Source of the DNA: Octopus sinensis
Lineage: Eukaryota
Assembly: GCF_006345805.1 (NCBI RefSeq)
Contig: NC_043018.1
Coordinates: forward strand, 25,854,001-25,918,000
Length of the DNA: 64,000 nt
Direction: 5' to 3'
In this document: positions 2,265 to 43,481 of the stretch, one piece after another
Position numbering within the stretch: position 1 is the first letter of the stretch
Layout: each line of letters begins with the position of its first letter
Notes under the pieces: generated by a model
Database searches by the model: none
Seen by the model: the letters and a program-made list of their open reading frames with translations, nothing else
What the model was told of the DNA's origin: nothing
Made by a program: the position numbers and the translations under genes

Positions 2265-3200
2265 AACCCTCACAACACACACACACACACACACACACAC
2301 AACACACACACACACACACACGACACATACACGCAACATACGCGCAACTTACAACGTTACGTATACAATACACACGCAACATACACACAAAATGCACACG
2401 CACACTACACTACACTACACATACAACACACACACAACATACACACACGCAATATGCACATAACATACACATACCACACTACAGATACAACACACACACA
2501 CACACAACATACACAAAACATACACATAACACACACAACATACACACACGCACAACATACACACACACAACATACACACACACAACATACACACATAAAC
2601 ATTATACACACGCACAACATACACATACACATACACACACACACCATACACACACACACCATACATACACACAAACATACACACACACAACATACACACA
2701 CACAACGTACACACATAAGCAATATACACACACACAACATACACATACACATACACACACACAAACATACACGCACACAAACATACACACACACAACATA
2801 CACACACACAACATGCACACATAAACAATATACACACACACACCATACACACACACAACATACACACATAAACAATATACACAAACACAACATACACATA
2901 CACATACACACCCACAAACATACACACACACAACATACACACACACAACATACACACACACCATACACACACACAACATACACACACACAACATACACAC
3001 ACACCATACACACACACAACATACACACACACAACATACACACACACCATACACACACACAACATGCACACATAAACAATATACACACACACAACATACA
3101 CATACACATACACACACACAAACATACACACACACAAACATACACAACATAATGCACACACAGACGGAAGGCACACACACACACACACACACACAGAAAC
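2265..3200. repeat. CA-rich degenerate minisatellite (acacacaacatac-type units)
   Basis: Recurrent acacacaacatac and cataaacaatatac blocks. Confidence 0.9.
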
Positions 3201-12452: not shown

Positions 12453-12802
12453 TACGACGGACTTCTTTCAGTTTCCGTCTACCAAATCCACTCACAAAGC
12501 TTTGGTCGTCCCGAGGCTATAGTAGAAGACACTTGCCCATGTTGCCACGCAGTGGGACTGAACCCAGAAACATGTGGTTGGTAAGCAAGCTACTTACCAC
12601 AAGGCCACTCTTGCGCTTCAAAAGATTAAGGTGATATACAGTTAATCCACTCACAAAGCTTTGGTCGTCTCGAGGCTATAGTAGAAGACACTTGCCCATG
12701 TTGCCACGCAATGGGATTGAACCGAGAACCATGTGGTTGGTAAGCAAGCTACTTACCACACAGCCACTCTTGCGCTTCAAAAGATTAAGGTGATATACAG
12801 TT
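12453..12802 (-). mobile_element. SINE family A 5' half within a 159-bp tandem duplication
   Basis: Units 12485-12643 and 12644-12802 are near identical and both include the non-SINE flank ttcaaaagattaaggtgatatacagtt. Confidence 0.85.
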
Positions 12803-13137
12803 AAAAATAATGTCAGTAAGCAGATCTATTGTTGAAGTATTACAGGAAATCCGATGTAAAAGATGATAGAAGGTGTTAGGTCCGTCGTTGAAAATAAAGT
12901 GAGGTAGACATGAGTGGAAGACCTTCAGATTGTATGAGTAAATGAAGGAAAGGGAGAGTAGTATGAGGGTGGACTGAAAAGTTGATAAGCTGATAGTGAA
13001 AGAGTGATGCTAGAGCAATGAAATCTTGCATGCATTCATTTTAACCCTTATTACTAATGGGTTTTTTTTCTTTCTAGCTAAACTGACATCTCACTGTTCA
13101 AAGAACACTTCAAAGTAACTAGTATCGATTTCTCCTG

Positions 13138-14428: not shown

Positions 14429-15372
14429 GAATAAACGCATATGAAAATAGGCTAATGAGCCAGTTAATTAATGAGATCATGCTATGTTTGAACAACATAT
14501 GAGAGAAAATAAATTGGTTGGTGACTATGCAGGGGTAGTTGTCCCACTGCATCTCGATTTGTGGTAAAATTTGTAAATTTTATAGACTTTATGAACACAA
14601 TGGAAGAATACCTCGTGATGATTTTTTTCATAATTGTGCTAGGTCATTGGACAGTATATGAATAGATTCCTTCAAACATAATCAACAGGAGGGATGCATT
14701 TTTTTTTATCAAGAGCTAGAGTTAATGATCCACTAATTATGTCATGTTGTATAGTTTGTTTTTCCCCTAAGGTAGTGAATGTGTCCTGCCAGAGAAGTTG
14801 AATTACTATGATTTTCGTGAGTAAACGAGTTTAAATACTATGAAAATCCTTACTTAAAATTAACAGAATCTCCAATAGAAAACTTGATGGAACTTTGGGG
14901 GCCTATTTAATACTGAGCACTTATGTACTACTTTAAACCTTTGGCAGTGAGCTTGAAATGGGTATTTTACCCTACCCCCGTTTCGAGGGGTTACAACTGG
15001 AGCTACTTTATTTATTAATCCTTCTACTTAAGATGTTATGTTGAAAATACAAGATGGGCTAAATTAGGTCGATTTTATTTAATCTCCACGTATGTGTTAT
15101 TTCCAATACCATCCCCGCCATTATTATATGTACTTGTGATGGAAGACGCTGGTACTCCTTACCTTTGATTGGCAGTAAATGCAGCCATATTGGCGCGAAA
15201 AATGATGTTATCCCGTTATTGTTGATATCATTGTTCTAATTACAGCACCATTACTATTACCACTACTGTCACTCATACCACCACCACTATTGCAACCAGT
15301 ACTGTTCTCTCTATCAGTGATTCTTAAAAATGTTATCGTCATTTCCATTATCATTAGCACCATTTATAACAA

Positions 15373-15995
15373 GGCGGCGAGCTGGCAGAATCGTTAGCAC
15401 TCTAGACGAAATGCTTAGCGGTATTTCGCCAGTCGAAAGGCGGCAAGCTGGCAGAAATGTTAGCACGCTGGGCGAAATGCTTAGCGGTATTTCGTCTACC
15501 GTTACGTTCTGAGTTCAAATTCCGCCGAGGTCGACTTTGACTTTCATCATTTCGGGGTCGATAAATTAAGTGGCAGTTACGCACTGGGGTCGATATAATC
15601 GACTTAATACCTATGTCTGTCCTTGTTTGTCCCCTCTACGTTTAGCCCCTTGTGGGTAATAAAGAATTAGGTATTTCATCTGCCGTTACGTTCTGAGTTC
15701 AAATTCCGCCGAGGTCGACTTTGCCTTTCATCCTTTCGGGGTCAATAAATTAAGTACCAGTTACGCACTGGGGTCGATGTAATCGACTTAATCCATTTGT
15801 CTGTCCTCTGTGTTTAGCCCCTTGTGGGTAGTAAAGAAATAGGTATTTTGCCCGTCGCTACGTTCTGAGTTCAAATTTCGCCGAGGTCGACTCTACCTTT
15901 CATCCTTTCGGGATCGATAAACTAAGTACCAGGGGTCGATCTAATTGACCAGTCCCCTCTCCAAACTTTCAGGCCTTGTGTTTATACTAGAAAGG

Positions 15996-29524: not shown

Positions 29525-29735
29525 TCTACTTGTTTCATTCGTTAGACTGCGGCCATGCTGGTGCAGGGTCTTTTAGTCGAACAAGTCAACCTGGGGGCCT
29601 TATTTCTTTAGCCTGATACTTATTCTATCAGTCTCTCTTTACCGAACCGTTAAGTTACGAGGATGTAAACATACTAACACCGGTTGTCGATCGCTGACAG
29701 GTTGGACAAACATAGACACAAAGACATACACACAC
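29525..29735 (-). mobile_element. SINE family A 3' half abutting the mariner relic
   Basis: gactgcggccatgctgg...tacttattctatcagtctc...ccgaaccgttaagttacg. Confidence 0.75.
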
Positions 29736-29742
29736 ATATTCA

Positions 29743-30564
29743 CAGGGTGCGAGGGGACAATTGTCGTCATTTGATATTCTTTTTGATTTTGTCGAAAATA
29801 CAGTATAGCTGGGCACCGTCTGTGAAAAAAACAGCGACATGGTGCAATTCACTCTGCCAGAAATTTGGAAACGACATGCTGTACTCTTTGGCGTTTGTAC
29901 TGGAATCTCCAGTACGAACATTTCAGATTTTTTCGGTGTCAGTCTCAGGACAGTGCAATCGGAGGACACGTACCGAAAGTAATAAAAATCAAACATCCAG
30001 TCAGTTAAGGCGACGTTATACCTCCATTTATCTTCCAAAACAACCTCAGTCTCAAAACGGAAGCCTGCATCAAGTGCCCGGAGGAGGTAGCACTGCCTTG
30101 GGTCAAGAATGTGGATGTTGGAAGAACCTATGTCTCGCAACACCACTCTGCACCATTCCACACAAGCAGGAGAAAGCAGTCATGGCTGTCAGACAATTTC
30201 TCGACGACATCATCCCTAGCATCTGGCTACCTAATTCACAAGATCGCAATCCCCTTGATTATTATGTGTGGGACGTAGTTGAGCGACAACATAACTCCTT
30301 GTTGACCAATATAACTCCTTGTAACAACAAAGATAAACTGAAGGCAAAAATTAAGACACCAACTTTAACAAAGAGACCATCCAGTAGAGTTGCAATAGAT
30401 TCCGAAGTTGTCTGCGACCGAAGTTTAAGCCAATGGCGATTTTATTAACTCCAATATTTCCAGATGTTTTTATGCAATTTTGGTAAATATATCTGTTAAA
30501 ATGAGATGTCAGTGTTATTTTCATTTCTGCATAATTTAGACGACAGTTTATTCACCGTATCATG
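29743..30564 (+). mobile_element. Internally deleted Tc1/mariner-superfamily element (DD37D/maT-like)
   Basis: Degenerate TIRs cagggtgcgaggggacaattgtcgtc and gacgacagtttattcaccgtatcatg. N-terminus MVQFTLPEIWKRHAVL...VSLRTVQ from 29839; catalytic remnant HSAPFHTSRR...WLPNSQDRNPLDYYVW with 37-residue spacing after one frameshift. Confidence 0.85.
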
Positions 30565-30574
30565 CAAATACATG

Positions 30575-30619
<45 letters not shown>

Positions 30620-30721
30620 GCACGCACATATATATATATATGTAATTGGTAGAACTATATACATATTCCATCTCATGCGGACGTCTCGTGTAAAGTTCTT
30701 CAAATTATATTTTGCTATGAC

Positions 30722-30795
30722 GATCACACTGACGAGTTGCGGACATCTACATAAGTAATTACGTAAGTGGTAACAACGAAACCGGGTTTGTGATT
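30722..30795 (+). ncRNA. Candidate minimal type I hammerhead ribozyme in a PLE-like tail
   Basis: gatcaca-CTGACGA-gttg[34 nt]caac-GAAA-C-cgg-GTT-tgtgatt: 7-bp stem I, 4-bp stem II closed by G-C, intact core, GUU triplet. Confidence 0.7.
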
Positions 30796-31350
30796 AATCC
30801 GTATATTTTGTATGTTTTCATTTGTCTTGCTCGCTTACGTTCTAGCGTTTGCTAAATTTTCTTGAGAACATTCCTTTCTTAGTGGTAAGACCATAGGGGG
30901 GCGACTTCTAGCATAATGGATGGTACACTTAGTGGTCATTCCTCTTAAATATATGTAATATAATTTTTCTGAATCTTCAGATTTTCCTACACACACACAC
31001 GCATACACACACACACACATACATACACATACACATGTCTGCATACTCATATACCTGTATGTGTATATGTAGGTATATATGTGCATATATATATATGTGC
31101 ATATATATATATGTGCATATATATATATGTGCAAGAGTGGGCGTGTGTGTGAGTGTGTGCGTCTGTATGTTTAAAGTTTTGTAGAAATATTCAAAAAGTG
31201 CTAGCGTGTCGACGTCTACCATAGTGCGCTGTTACACATATACATGCATACACACACACATACATACATACACATACACACACGAATACTCACAGATGCA
31301 CAAATACATGCACGCACACACACACACACACATACACACACACATATATA

Positions 31351-32184
31351 TTGGGCCATCCCATAAATAATGCGGTATTTTAAAACTTTTATTTTTCAAA
31401 ATGAAGATAAAAAAATTTCTTTTTAATCTAAAATATACTCTCCTTCATTTTCAACAAAGCTCTTCCATCTATCTGGTAGACTTGAAAATTCTCCCAAAAT
31501 TCGCTTGTCCGTGACGAAAAATACTCCTCCAGTACTGTTCTGACCTCGTCTAAAGAATTCATATATTTTCCGTCCAATTGATTTTGAAGACTGCATAATA
31601 AATGTTAATCAGACGGAGCAATGCCCGACGAATATGGTGGGTGGAGCATCGTTTCCCAATCAAACTTCTCCAGCCTTTGGAATACCATCCTCGCTGTATG
31701 TGACCGAGCAGTATCCTGAGGGAAGAACACCTTTCGTCTTGAAACCAAAGATGGTCATTTTCCGATGGCACGCAAAGTGTCAATGAATGGTTGTATGGCC
31801 AAATCCAAGCTTCTCTGCTAGTTCTTCAACGGTTACAATGGGATTTTCTTCCTCCAGGACGTCCTCGTCAAGCTCTATAGACCTTTTAGGACTAGGCTCG
31901 TCTTCTAGGCTGTAGTTTCCGACTCGGAATTCCGTTGCGTTGTTGCCTTTATTGAACTCATAAAGTAAAACATACCGAATATGCTCCTTTGTCACTTACG
32001 TTATAGCTTTGAAAAAGTAACTCTTAAAATCGAACTGCACTCATCATAACTTGCACTAAGAATAAGGACAAGGTAAACTTACAACCTACTTTTATAGGAA
32101 GTTGATGCAGGTAGTTTATCCCGTCCCCCTCCGACTTTTAGTTCATGCAATTGAAAATACTGCGTTATTTATGAGATAACCCAA
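31351..32184 (-). mobile_element. Internally deleted mariner element with 30-bp TIRs and TA TSDs
   Basis: TIRs 31351-31380 and 32155-32184 match at 25 of 30. HTH remnant MTKEHIRYVLLYEFNKGNNATE...SLEDEPS; C-terminal PPYSSGIAPSD*HL (YSPDLAPSDYHLF-like). Confidence 0.9.
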
Positions 32185-32269
32185 TATATACCTATAAATC
32201 TGTATGAGCGCGTGTCTGCGTGGGTCGATATCTGTTAGCTTTCTATTCTTATACACGTACACATGTTCT

Positions 32270-40870: not shown

Positions 40871-41470
40871 CTAACTTTGCTTGTAATTGGCACATATATC
40901 CACGTCCTGATATACAAACGGATGCAGACTGAGCGTACGCACGTATTGGACAAGACATACAGAGTCACACATGGAATGACATGCATGCGTATACGCACAC
41001 ATACTTAACACTCACATATGCATACACACGCGTGCATGGAAACAGGTTTGAATTTATATTATAACGCGTATTTAGATAGCGAACACGCAGAATCTTTAGA
41101 GCTTCGGTAAAAAATTGCTTAGCGACATTTATTCATGCTCTTTAAGTTTTGAATCCAAATGCCACCAAGGTCCAGGTCGTCCTTCCTTTTGAGGTTGATA
41201 AAGTAAGTAAGAGCTGAACATGGGCTCGATGTAATCAATTTACCCCTCATCTCAAAATTGCTGGCATTGTGCGAACATTCGAATATGCGATGATATACAT
41301 TAGAATATTAATATCTGCTTGTGTATGGCTGCTGTTGGTCCGAAAGAACGGGGATATATGCAACCAGTTAAATTAGGAAACTAGAAGGAAATAGTTCTAT
41401 ATTTAAGAGATGAGGAATTATGTACATTACTTACATTCGACGGATATTTCACCTCATCTTGTTTGTTGTT

Positions 41471-41516
41471 AACACAACGTTTCGGCTGATATACCCTCCA
41501 GCCTTCTTCAGGTGTC
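41471..41516 (-). ncRNA. Candidate minimal (dimer-type) hammerhead ribozyme
   Basis: gacac-CTGAAGA-a-ggctgg[agggtata]tcagcc-GAAA-CGTT-gtgtt: 5-bp stem I, 6-bp stem II, palindromic AACGTT in place of stem III. Confidence 0.65.
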
Positions 41517-41603
41517 TTGGGGAAATTTCGAACATAGGTTCTCATTCCTAATAACATCGAATAATACCTTAGGAATGGGAACCCAGATTCGAAATCTCCC
41601 CAA

Positions 41604-42950: not shown

Positions 42951-43481
42951 GAGCAATTGACTGTGAGCAATTGGCAGTGGGCAGATGACAGTGAGCAGTT
43001 GACTGTGAGCAGTTGACAGTGAGCAGTTGTAAGTGGGCAGTTGACAGTGAGAAGTTGACAGTGAGCAGTTGACTGTGAGCGGTTGACAGTGAGCAGTTGG
43101 CAGTGGGCAGTTGACAGTGAGCAGTTGACAGTGAGCAGTTGACAGTGGGCAGTTGACAGTGAGCAGTTGACAGTGAGCAGTTGACAGTGGGCAGTTGACA
43201 GTGAGCAGTTGACAGTGAGCAGTTGACAGTGAGCAGTTGGCAGTGGGCAGTTGACAGTGAGCAGTTGGCAGTGGGCAGTTGACAGTGAGTAGTTGACAGT
43301 GGGCAGTTGACAGTGGGCAGTTGACAGTGAGCAGTTGACAGTGAGCAGTTGACAGTGGGCAGTTGACAGTGAGCAGTTGACAGTGAGCAGTTGACAGTGG
43401 GCAGTTGACAGTGAGCAGTTGACAGTGAGCAGTTGACAGTGAGCAGTTGGCAGTGGGCAGTTGACAGTGAGCAGTTGACAG
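42951..43481. repeat. 14-bp minisatellite (GCAGTTGACAGTGA), ~38 units
   Basis: Direct reading; variants GCAGTTGGCAGTGG and GCAGTTGACAGTGG. Confidence 0.97.

What the first reader, a model, noticed from the sequence alone, without database searches (positions are those of the whole stretch)
30722..30795. Well-preserved minimal hammerhead ribozyme candidate
Seen: the full catalytic core CUGACGA...GAAA...GUU, a 7-bp stem I (gatcaca/tgtgatt), a G-C-closed 4-bp stem II with a 34-nt loop, and a vestigial stem III (ACCGGGT) that is self-complementary apart from the central G. Established: Penelope-like elements carry minimal type I hammerheads whose palindromic stem III lets them cleave as dimers. 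Inference: this copy may still self-cleave after position 30788 if transcribed, and could cut a host pre-mRNA or lncRNA.
Basis: partly seen in the sequence, partly recalled or inferred. Interest (0 to 1): 0.75.

Follow-up and report, generated by a model that had tools for sequence, protein, structure and literature searches.

The report
Hammerhead relic in a truncated retrozyme
This is a real hammerhead-ribozyme motif inside one broken copy of a small, protein-free repeat with a few thousand copies in this animal genome; the repeat was likely pasted around by a Penelope-type retrotransposon enzyme, and this lone copy is likely an inert relic, not a cutter of host RNA.

Summary
The motif is real and beyond chance; Rfam Hammerhead_1 matches below its cut-off. 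It lies in 30640-30989, a doubly truncated 350-bp piece of a 534-nt, ORF-less, strongly self-paired repeat unit with roughly 2,500-3,200 search candidates. Subfamilies and a 66%-identical sister family change stems I and II compensatorily around a constant core, and the '34-nt loop' hides a conserved hairpin: the ribozyme mattered to the element's lineage. Copies show the Penelope footprint: variable 5' ends, two fixed 3' ends 107 nt apart, microsatellite targets, inverted 5' arms in 42 of 90. Copying mostly ran through the cleavage site (60 of 67 arms). This copy has one ribozyme, no partner, and an intact core as in 40 of 64 copies, so 'well preserved' reflects age, not selection. Cleavage, transcription and a host gene were not shown. 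Verdict: new member of a known kind (non-LTR retrozyme). This scan has already reported other retrozyme families with this footprint in the same genome.

The parts
30640..30989 (+). Truncated copy (unit positions 386 to 199, wrapping through the cleavage site; position 1 = first base after the cut) of a 534-nt ORF-less retrozyme-type repeat; 94% identical to the family majority sequence
30722..30728 (+). Stem I, 5' strand (pairs with 30789-30795)
   Evidence: 2 of 7 pairs change on both sides across subfamilies
30729..30735 (+). Catalytic core CUGACGA (C3-A9)
30736..30739 (+). Stem II, 5' strand (pairs with 30774-30777)
   Evidence: 100% of cells paired, 2 of 4 pairs compensatory (GUUG/CAAC versus GCUA/UAGC)
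30748..30765 (+). Distal 7-bp hairpin of stem II with GUAA tetraloop; A30751 (family G) breaks one pair
   Evidence: 3 of 7 pairs compensatory with the sister family
30774..30781 (+). Stem II 3' strand CAAC and core GAAA (G12-A15.1)
30781..30787 (+). Stem III region ACCGGGU: 2 bp plus 3-nt loop as monomer, or 7-nt self-duplex with central G.G as dimer; the odd-length form is a subfamily trait (33 of 64 copies)
30788..30789 (+). Predicted cleavage site, after GUU (U17 = 30788)
   Evidence: sequence plus established hammerhead numbering; cleavage not tested
30789..30795 (+). Stem I, 3' strand
30918..30962 (+). Hairpin (about 30918-30942) and the first of the family's two fixed 3' ends (unit position about 172 = window about 30962), inferred reverse-transcription start site; the second (position 279) is missing from this copy
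30576..30641 (.). (CA)n/(TA)n microsatellite abutting the 5' end of the copy, the usual target of this family
30989..31035 (.). (CA)n microsatellite abutting the 3' truncation

Best explanation
The motif is the type I hammerhead of a 534-nt, protein-free dispersed repeat (a non-LTR retrozyme) that was likely copied into TA/CA microsatellites by the enzyme of a Penelope-like retrotransposon, and this truncated copy is likely a neutral relic. Shown: unit length, lack of ORF, copy structure, two fixed 3' ends, stem covariation, read-through of the cut site. Inferred mechanism for the family: a master copy is transcribed beyond one unit; the hammerhead, likely as a dimer through the stem III palindrome and possibly protein-assisted, cuts out the 534-nt monomer, which is likely ligated to a circle; the borrowed Penelope RT/endonuclease nicks AT-rich DNA and starts copying internally at position 279 or 172, often one site per arm of a head-to-head two-armed insertion, and can run past the junction for more than one lap. 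I put a circular template at about 55% against an uncut linear multimer at about 45%. Inferred for this copy: it later lost, or never gained, both ends, has one ribozyme and no partner, and would cleave slowly if at all (about 25% for detectable cleavage as an engineered tandem dimer, about 5% for a measurable effect on a host RNA).
For: Family: 3151 and 2468 first-look candidates, 40 scored each, 88-94% identical; 245 exact hits of a 34-mer, 0 for the control. Unit: period 535 in natural tandem L016, majority monomer 534 nt, 34% GC; longest Met-started frame 49 aa; circular fold -148 kcal/mol, z -9.2 against 60 shuffles. Penelope footprint in 90 copies picked only by a motif near the 3' end (90 of 245 matches, the first listed): 81 of 90 end at 261-288, 78 of 90 have a microsatellite within 30 nt, 42 of 90 carry an inverted head-to-head 5' arm, 36 of those 42 ending at 162-179; 7 of 90 exceed one unit. 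In a second set anchored at 46-73, 79 of 94 arms end at one of the two sites; of 52 two-armed insertions 28 have one end of each kind, 2 have both at 160-180, 0 have both at 255-290, 22 have at least one end elsewhere. Two internal start sites producing a 'tail', AT-rich targets and inverted 5'-truncated arms are the described PLE signature (PMC11167929, PMC8557442). Selection on the ribozyme at lineage level: core substitutions 2.6% versus 5.7% elsewhere at non-CpG sites; 97.6% and 98.3% of cells paired, 4 of 20 and 5 of 10 pairs compensatory, slid controls 18-47% paired; sister family with different stems and a 10-nt palindromic stem III. Relic status: single family hit in the window; 0 of 94 arms end at 190-210 as this copy does; intact core in 40 of 64 copies; stem I probability 0.01 with 30-nt flanks against 0.97 for the majority sequence.
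Against: No cleavage, circle or transcript was observed. No autonomous partner was found: none of 59 flanking ORFs with RT or GIY-YIG hits is shown to be continuous with the unit, and the one abundant PLE family examined has an unrelated 3' end. No long tandem array, the hallmark of classical retrozymes, was seen among the 100 listed of 245 matches; the one locus with two same-strand motifs (L016) has a core mutation in each. There is no pile-up of 5' ends at the cut (7 of 67 within +4..-3, hazard 0.013 against 0.005-0.019 in neighbouring bins), so the genome gives no direct trace of cleavage. Fold predictions are weak evidence: even the majority sequence has stem II probability 0.01, and this copy's penalty (7.4 kcal/mol) is within the range of 27 others (1.4-11.1, median 5.5). 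Covariation cells are inherited by subfamily and the aligned rows were hand-picked for intact motifs, so they count few events; 'pairs with a change on both sides' was reached by 120 and 72 of 500 shuffles.
Confidence: 0.85

Rival explanations
1. The stretch is the terminal repeat (pLTR) fragment of an autonomous Penelope-like element whose ORF-bearing copies were not sampled.
For: Same insertion footprint as autonomous PLEs; PLEs are abundant here (18292 first-look candidates for one endonuclease fragment); only about 250 of some thousands of loci were read.
Against: Copies that run 5' beyond the ribozyme continue into the unit's own 3' end (head-to-tail, up to 906 nt), not into an ORF; longest Met-started frame in the unit is 49 aa; no attached RT/EN ORF.
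Confidence: 0.07
2. One reading: this copy is an active or exapted ribozyme that cuts a host pre-mRNA or lncRNA after 30788.
For: All core bases and stems I and II are intact; the odd palindrome can still self-pair (-7.3 kcal/mol); some invertebrate retrozyme hammerheads cleave as single motifs (mussel about 0.1 per min, PMC7229834 section read).
Against: No partner copy in the window; intact core is the majority state among copies (40 of 64); rival hairpins predicted; PLE-type hammerheads show no or low activity as monomers (PMC4209133), need protein (PMC11167929), and 8 of 9 Xenopus dimers did not cleave (bioRxiv 10.64898/2026.07.22.740005); GUU is recalled to be a slower site than GUC (not checked in a paper); no host exon recognised.
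Confidence: 0.05
3. The family spreads by Penelope machinery from uncut multimeric transcripts, and the hammerhead is a vestige of the parent pLTR that no longer needs to cleave.
For: 60 of 67 arms read through the cut site; in the anole PLE uncut RNA is the dominant substrate and core mutants do not affect insertion (PMC11167929); the sister family has largely replaced G10.1-C11.1 by U.U (14 of 17 motifs); stem III drifts between 6- and 7-nt forms.
Against: Core positions vary less than the rest and stems change compensatorily between subfamilies and a 66%-identical sister family, which drift alone would not readily give. This rival changes the mechanism, not the identity or the relic status.
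Confidence: 0.3
4. Chance match to the hammerhead consensus.
For: Below the Rfam gathering score (19.3 against 34); the 74-mer alone folds no better than shuffles (z -0.5).
Against: 0 strict matches in 100 shuffled windows; covariation across families.
Confidence: 0.005

Closest known systems
Metazoan non-LTR retrozymes (coral, mussel, axolotl: PMC7229834; vertebrate survey: bioRxiv 10.64898/2026.07.22.740005)
   Same: Non-coding unit with one type I hammerhead, GC below 45%, strongly self-paired, head-to-tail repeats, thousands of copies, coexists with PLEs.
   Different: Unit of 534 nt is above the 170-400 nt of PMC7229834 (inside the 51-972 bp of the preprint); copies are mostly dispersed, shorter than one unit and two-armed, not arrays; GUU site; stem II carries an internal loop and a distal hairpin; circles not shown.
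Penelope-like elements, e.g. anole Poseidon PAc (PMC11167929) and the PLE insertion structures in PMC8557442
   Same: Two internal 3' start sites giving a 'tail', AT-rich or microsatellite targets, 5' truncation, partial tandems, inverted 5'-truncated arm, hammerhead upstream of the start sites, read-through of the cut.
   Different: No RT/GIY-YIG ORF; the tail is about 107 nt against the 30-40 bp described.
Canonical metazoan type I hammerhead, Rfam Hammerhead_1 (RF00163)
   Same: Core, G10.1-C11.1, 4-bp stem II, short stem III with palindromic character.
   Different: Scores 19.3 bits, below the gathering score of 34, with a long insertion in stem II; odd-length palindrome with a central G.G; conserved loop I-loop II contacts not identified.
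PLE minimal hammerheads (min-HHR, PMC4209133)
   Same: Weak stem III, palindromic 15.2-16.2 region, presumed dimer cleavage.
   Different: Helix I is 7 bp not 4-5, proximal helix II 4 bp not 7-8, no unpaired base between A9 and 10.1, and a loop III is present.

Membership tests
Type I hammerhead ribozyme | Core CUGANGA...GAAA...UH | tested here: met
Type I hammerhead ribozyme | Three-way junction with open stem I; stems supported by covariation | tested here: met
   stems I and II compensatory; stem III only 2 bp, no two-sided change in the main family
Type I hammerhead ribozyme | Rfam RF00163 gathering score | tested here: not met
   19.3 bits against 34, E 0.021; none at gathering score
Type I hammerhead ribozyme | Self-cleavage at the predicted site | not testable with these tools
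   no biochemical assay; 5'-end mapping of genomic copies shows no stop at the site
PLE minimal hammerhead (min-HHR) | Helix I 4-5 bp, helix II 7-8 bp, unpaired base before helix II | tested here: not met
   against the description in PMC4209133
PLE minimal hammerhead (min-HHR) | Palindromic 15.2-16.2 region allowing a dimer | tested here: met
   self-duplex -7.3 kcal/mol with central G.G; variants ACUGGU, ACUAGU, ACAUGU, ACCGGU and the sister's 10-mers all self-pair; dimer cleavage itself not tested
Non-LTR retrozyme | No protein coding; small low-GC unit with a type I hammerhead | tested here: met
   534 nt, 34% GC, longest Met frame 49 aa
Non-LTR retrozyme | Head-to-tail repeat organisation | tested here: met
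   partial tandems up to 906 nt; 7 of 90 unbiased copies exceed one unit
Non-LTR retrozyme | [quoted passage not shown] | tested here: inconclusive
   not met by this copy; L016 has two motifs, each with a core mutation; only a few hundred of some thousands of loci were read
Non-LTR retrozyme | Highly self-paired monomer | tested here: met
   majority monomer folded as a circle: z -9.2, 67% paired
Non-LTR retrozyme | Expressed as linear and circular monomer RNA | not testable with these tools
   only assembled contigs of runs guessed to be RNA were available
Penelope-like element (autonomous) | ORF with RT and GIY-YIG endonuclease between pLTRs | tested here: not met
Penelope-like element (autonomous) | Insertion footprint: tail from two start sites, inverted 5' arm, microsatellite target | tested here: met

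The most novel reading that the evidence does not exclude
The family is an active circular-RNA retroelement whose hammerhead works with a GUU site, an odd-length G.G-mismatched dimer helix and an accessory stem II hairpin, and whose two start sites 107 nt apart are used one per arm, so that each two-armed insertion records a dimeric Penelope enzyme priming both target strands at different sites of one RNA; this would make the origin of PLE inverted ends directly testable with an ORF-less substrate.
Probability: 0.3. Interest if true: 0.55.

Novelty: new member of a known kind. Interest (0 to 1): 0.25.

Why it matters
For this locus, little: it is one decayed copy among thousands. For the family, modestly: no description of cephalopod retrozymes turned up in the held library (searches; a 2026 octopus repeat annotation has no 'ribozyme', 'hammerhead' or 'retrozyme' in its main text; supplements not seen), Rfam gathering-score annotation misses the motif, and the asymmetric use of two start sites in two-armed insertions bears on the open question of how PLE enzymes build inverted ends and whether retrozymes use them. 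The same pattern has already been noted by this scan for other families of this genome, which lowers the marginal value of this instance.

Tried and rejected
Rfam at gathering score: nothing; E-value scan of 701 bases gave only microsatellite-driven miRNA/snoRNA noise. tRNA-derived SINE: no tRNA gene, no A/B box by simple patterns. Expression: no RNA holder listed. Contigs of four runs guessed to be RNA (X1, X2, X14, X5) laid on paralogue L016 at 85% likeness gave 391, 69, 38 and 52 short pieces, none spanning the stretch, with no start or end information; not used as evidence. Locus-level read data were not obtained, so transcription of this copy stays open. Host gene: 26 and 150 window ORFs scanned against Pfam (130 shorter ORFs of the 280 listed were not scanned) gave only a mariner HTH fragment; short or unmodelled exons are not excluded. 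Autonomous partner: the PLE endonuclease fragment next to L074 belongs to a family with a different 3' end and its own hammerhead variant; its adjacency is attributed to shared microsatellite targeting. The high rate at -16..-40 is partly internal deletions of the distal hairpin, not true ends. The folding penalties near 20 kcal/mol were a register error for 6-nt variants and were replaced. The whole-motif dimer energy omits the distal hairpin and was not used. Lunse et al. (PMC5785218) is not held; a search on GUU versus GUC gave one unrelated paper.

Full report
Observation. The sequence at 30722-30795 holds a complete type I hammerhead layout exactly as described, with the predicted cut at 30788/30789 after GUU. 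A descriptor scan found it as the only match in the window and found 0 strict and 0.02 loose matches per window in 100 dinucleotide shuffles. Rfam gives nothing at gathering score and Hammerhead_1 at 19.3 bits, E 0.021, on a short stretch. The 74-mer alone does not fold better than shuffles and its lowest-energy fold is not the active one.

What it sits in. A search of the window's own genome (2.7 Gb; an earlier scan note calls it an octopus genome, which I did not test) with 30650-30990 gave 3151 first-look candidates, 40 scored, at 88-93% identity; a 160-base part gave 2468. Homology in the window spans 30640-30989 and is bounded by microsatellites. Paralogues continue on both sides, and their upstream sequence runs into their own downstream sequence: the unit is a head-to-tail repeat of period 535 in L016, majority length 534 nt, 34% GC. 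It has no ORF above 49 aa from a Met, no tRNA and no simple A/B box, and folds as a circle far better than shuffles (z -9.2). Numbering from the first base after the cut, the window copy covers 386 to 199, is 94% identical to the majority and is the only family hit in the window.

Insertion footprint. An exact 34-mer at unit 201-234 has 245 matches (control 0); 90 of them were read. 81 of 90 end at 261-288 (mode 279), 78 of 90 have a microsatellite within 30 nt, 5' ends vary, 7 of 90 are longer than one unit, and 42 of 90 carry an inverted arm joined head to head, 36 of which end at 162-179 (mode 172). A second sample anchored at 46-73 (95 of 98 exact matches) does not presuppose the 3' end: 44 of 94 arms end at 160-180, 35 at 255-290, 15 elsewhere, none at 190-210; among 52 two-armed insertions 28 pair one end of each kind, 2 pair two short ends, none pairs two long ends, and 22 have an end elsewhere. 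Each fixed end follows a hairpin and a CCC..TTAT stretch. Internal initiation at two sites that leaves a 'tail', and AT-rich targets, were shown in vitro for the anole PLE (PMC11167929, parts 1-2 of 4 read); partial tandems, inverted 5'-truncated copies, tails and microsatellite bias are described for PLEs in PMC8557442 (passages). That a PLE enzyme mobilised this family is therefore inferred from the footprint; the enzyme itself was not identified. Pfam found RT or GIY-YIG in 5 of 59 flanking ORFs; the GIY-YIG fragment belongs to an abundant PLE family (Neptune-type by its Cys-rich linker, my inference) whose 3' end is unlike the unit, and the one RT ORF I translated looks like an unrelated LINE (my reading).

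Was the ribozyme under selection? Of 64 aligned copies spanning the motif (a sample that includes 29 picked for likeness to the window copy, one sister-family row and three rows with deletions), 40 have an intact core; core positions differ from the commonest base in 2.6% of non-CpG cells against 5.7% elsewhere. Older subfamilies have GAUCAUA/UAUGAUU or UAUCAUG/CAUGAUU in stem I, GCUA/UAGC in stem II and ACUAGU, ACCGGU or ACAUGU in stem III. A sister family (66% identical over the 3' part, 2579 candidates, period 525-536) has CUAUG/CAUAG, a 5-bp stem II, a 10-nt palindromic stem III and a GUA site (17 motifs in 25 loci). On 25 hand-picked main-lineage rows 97.6% of cells pair and 4 of 20 pairs change on both sides; on 36 rows with the sister family, stem II and the distal hairpin give 98.3% and 5 of 10; slid controls give 18-47%. 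These cells reflect a few inherited events, and the pair counts alone are reached by 120 and 72 of 500 shuffles, but the changes fall on the predicted pairs and spare the core. The supposed 34-nt loop is an internal loop plus a 7-bp hairpin with a GNRA loop in this family. So the structure was maintained in the masters that spread.

Is this copy special? No sign of it. An intact core is the majority state. The odd-length stem III is shared by 33 of 64 copies and U17 by 59 of 64, so both are family traits. The copy lacks unit 200-385, which includes the second start site and a palindrome TTTTGGCGCGCCAAAA at 344-359 (it resembles an E2F site, a recalled label, untested). Its 3' end at 199 is matched by none of 94 arms. 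With 30-nt flanks the model gives stem I a probability of 0.01 against 0.97 for the majority; two minority bases, A30751 and C30800, account for much of it (0.42 with the family bases). This is weak evidence, since the majority's stem II is also at 0.01 and the copy's penalty lies within the family range. The stem III self-duplex is not weakened by the central G.G (-7.3 kcal/mol against -3.2 for ACUGGU), so the dimer idea stands, but there is no second copy in the window to pair with in cis. In the literature such motifs are inactive as monomers and weak as dimers (PMC4209133, parts 1-2 of 4; PMC6765202, passages), need protein (PMC11167929), and 8 of 9 Xenopus dimers did not cleave (bioRxiv 10.64898/2026.07.22.740005, parts 1-3 of 5); against this, coral and mussel retrozyme motifs do cleave as single copies (PMC7229834, passages and section 14).

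Does the genome record cleavage? If templates were linear monomers starting at the cut, 5' ends would pile up at position 1. In the first sample 3 of 14 arms reaching the site stopped there; in the larger one 7 of 67 stop within +4..-3 and 60 read through, at a rate like that of neighbouring bins. Templates were thus ligated circles or uncut multimers; the data do not separate them. Copies longer than one unit (up to 906 nt) and the absence of long arrays among 100 listed matches lean slightly to circles, as proposed in PMC4209133.

Host context. The copy lies between two mariner-like remnants in a repeat-dense region. No host exon was recognised among 176 ORFs scanned and no locus-level RNA evidence was obtained, so the claim of cutting a host transcript is neither shown nor excluded.

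Comparison and novelty. It works like, and by most testable features is, a metazoan non-LTR retrozyme mobilised with a PLE footprint; the array and circular-RNA features were not shown. It is not an autonomous PLE and not a min-HHR in the strict sense. Searches listed no paper on cephalopod retrozymes; the giant squid genome paper counts 235 Hammerhead_1 hits (PMC6962438, passages) and an octopus repeat annotation does not mention ribozymes in its main text (PMC13282606, passages); supplements were not read. Earlier notes of this scan describe several other retrozyme families with the same two-armed footprint in this genome, one also of about 534 nt; no note matched this family by sequence or place. 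The two-ended footprint was measured here before those notes were opened. Verdict: observation confirmed, interpretation partly supported, new member of a known kind, interest 0.25.

Noticed in passing
window 41468-41519, - strand: A second, unrelated hammerhead motif of the minimal type (CUGAAGA at 41511, 5-bp stem I, unpaired base then 6-bp stem II, GAAACGUU); 1 of 3 other loose matches and the only convincing one.
   Followed up: no
L181-L205 (e.g. L188:1405-1507): Sister retrozyme family, 2579 candidates, period 525-536, 10-nt palindromic stem III covarying as ACUGAUCGGU / ACUGAUUAGU / ACUAAUUAGU, GUA site, U.U in place of G10.1-C11.1 in 14 of 17 motifs, same two-armed footprint.
   Followed up: partly
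L152-L180, 3' of the endonuclease ORF: An abundant PLE family (18292 candidates, several open frames of about 780 aa) carries near its 3' end a hammerhead-like motif with the U3-A8 core variant (UUGAUAA...GAAACAUGUA) and a short tail; read by eye.
   Followed up: partly
L216, L222, L245, L266, L267, L293, L294: Recurrent internal deletion of the distal stem II hairpin, apparently through the direct repeat TACGTAAG on its two sides.
   Followed up: no
unit positions 344-359 (e.g. L016 upstream of 948): Perfect palindrome TTTTGGCGCGCCAAAA, like an E2F site (recalled label); the sister family keeps GCGCGCCAAA at the same place; absent from the window copy.
   Followed up: no
window 29678-30445 (+) and 31344-32190 (-): Decayed Tc1/mariner remnants on both sides of the copy: an SPDLNP-like motif by eye and a Mos1-type HTH hit at 31783-31995.
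   Followed up: partly
L019, - strand, about 400: Another unrelated hammerhead-like motif (CUGACGA ... GAAAUCGGUC) within 1.2 kb of a family copy.
   Followed up: no
window 42951-43481: Tandem array of a 14-nt unit, 38 copies, 90% matches.
   Followed up: no
window 15371-15932 and 12485-12804: Tandem duplications of SINE-like repeats (periods 66, 172-184 and 159).
   Followed up: no
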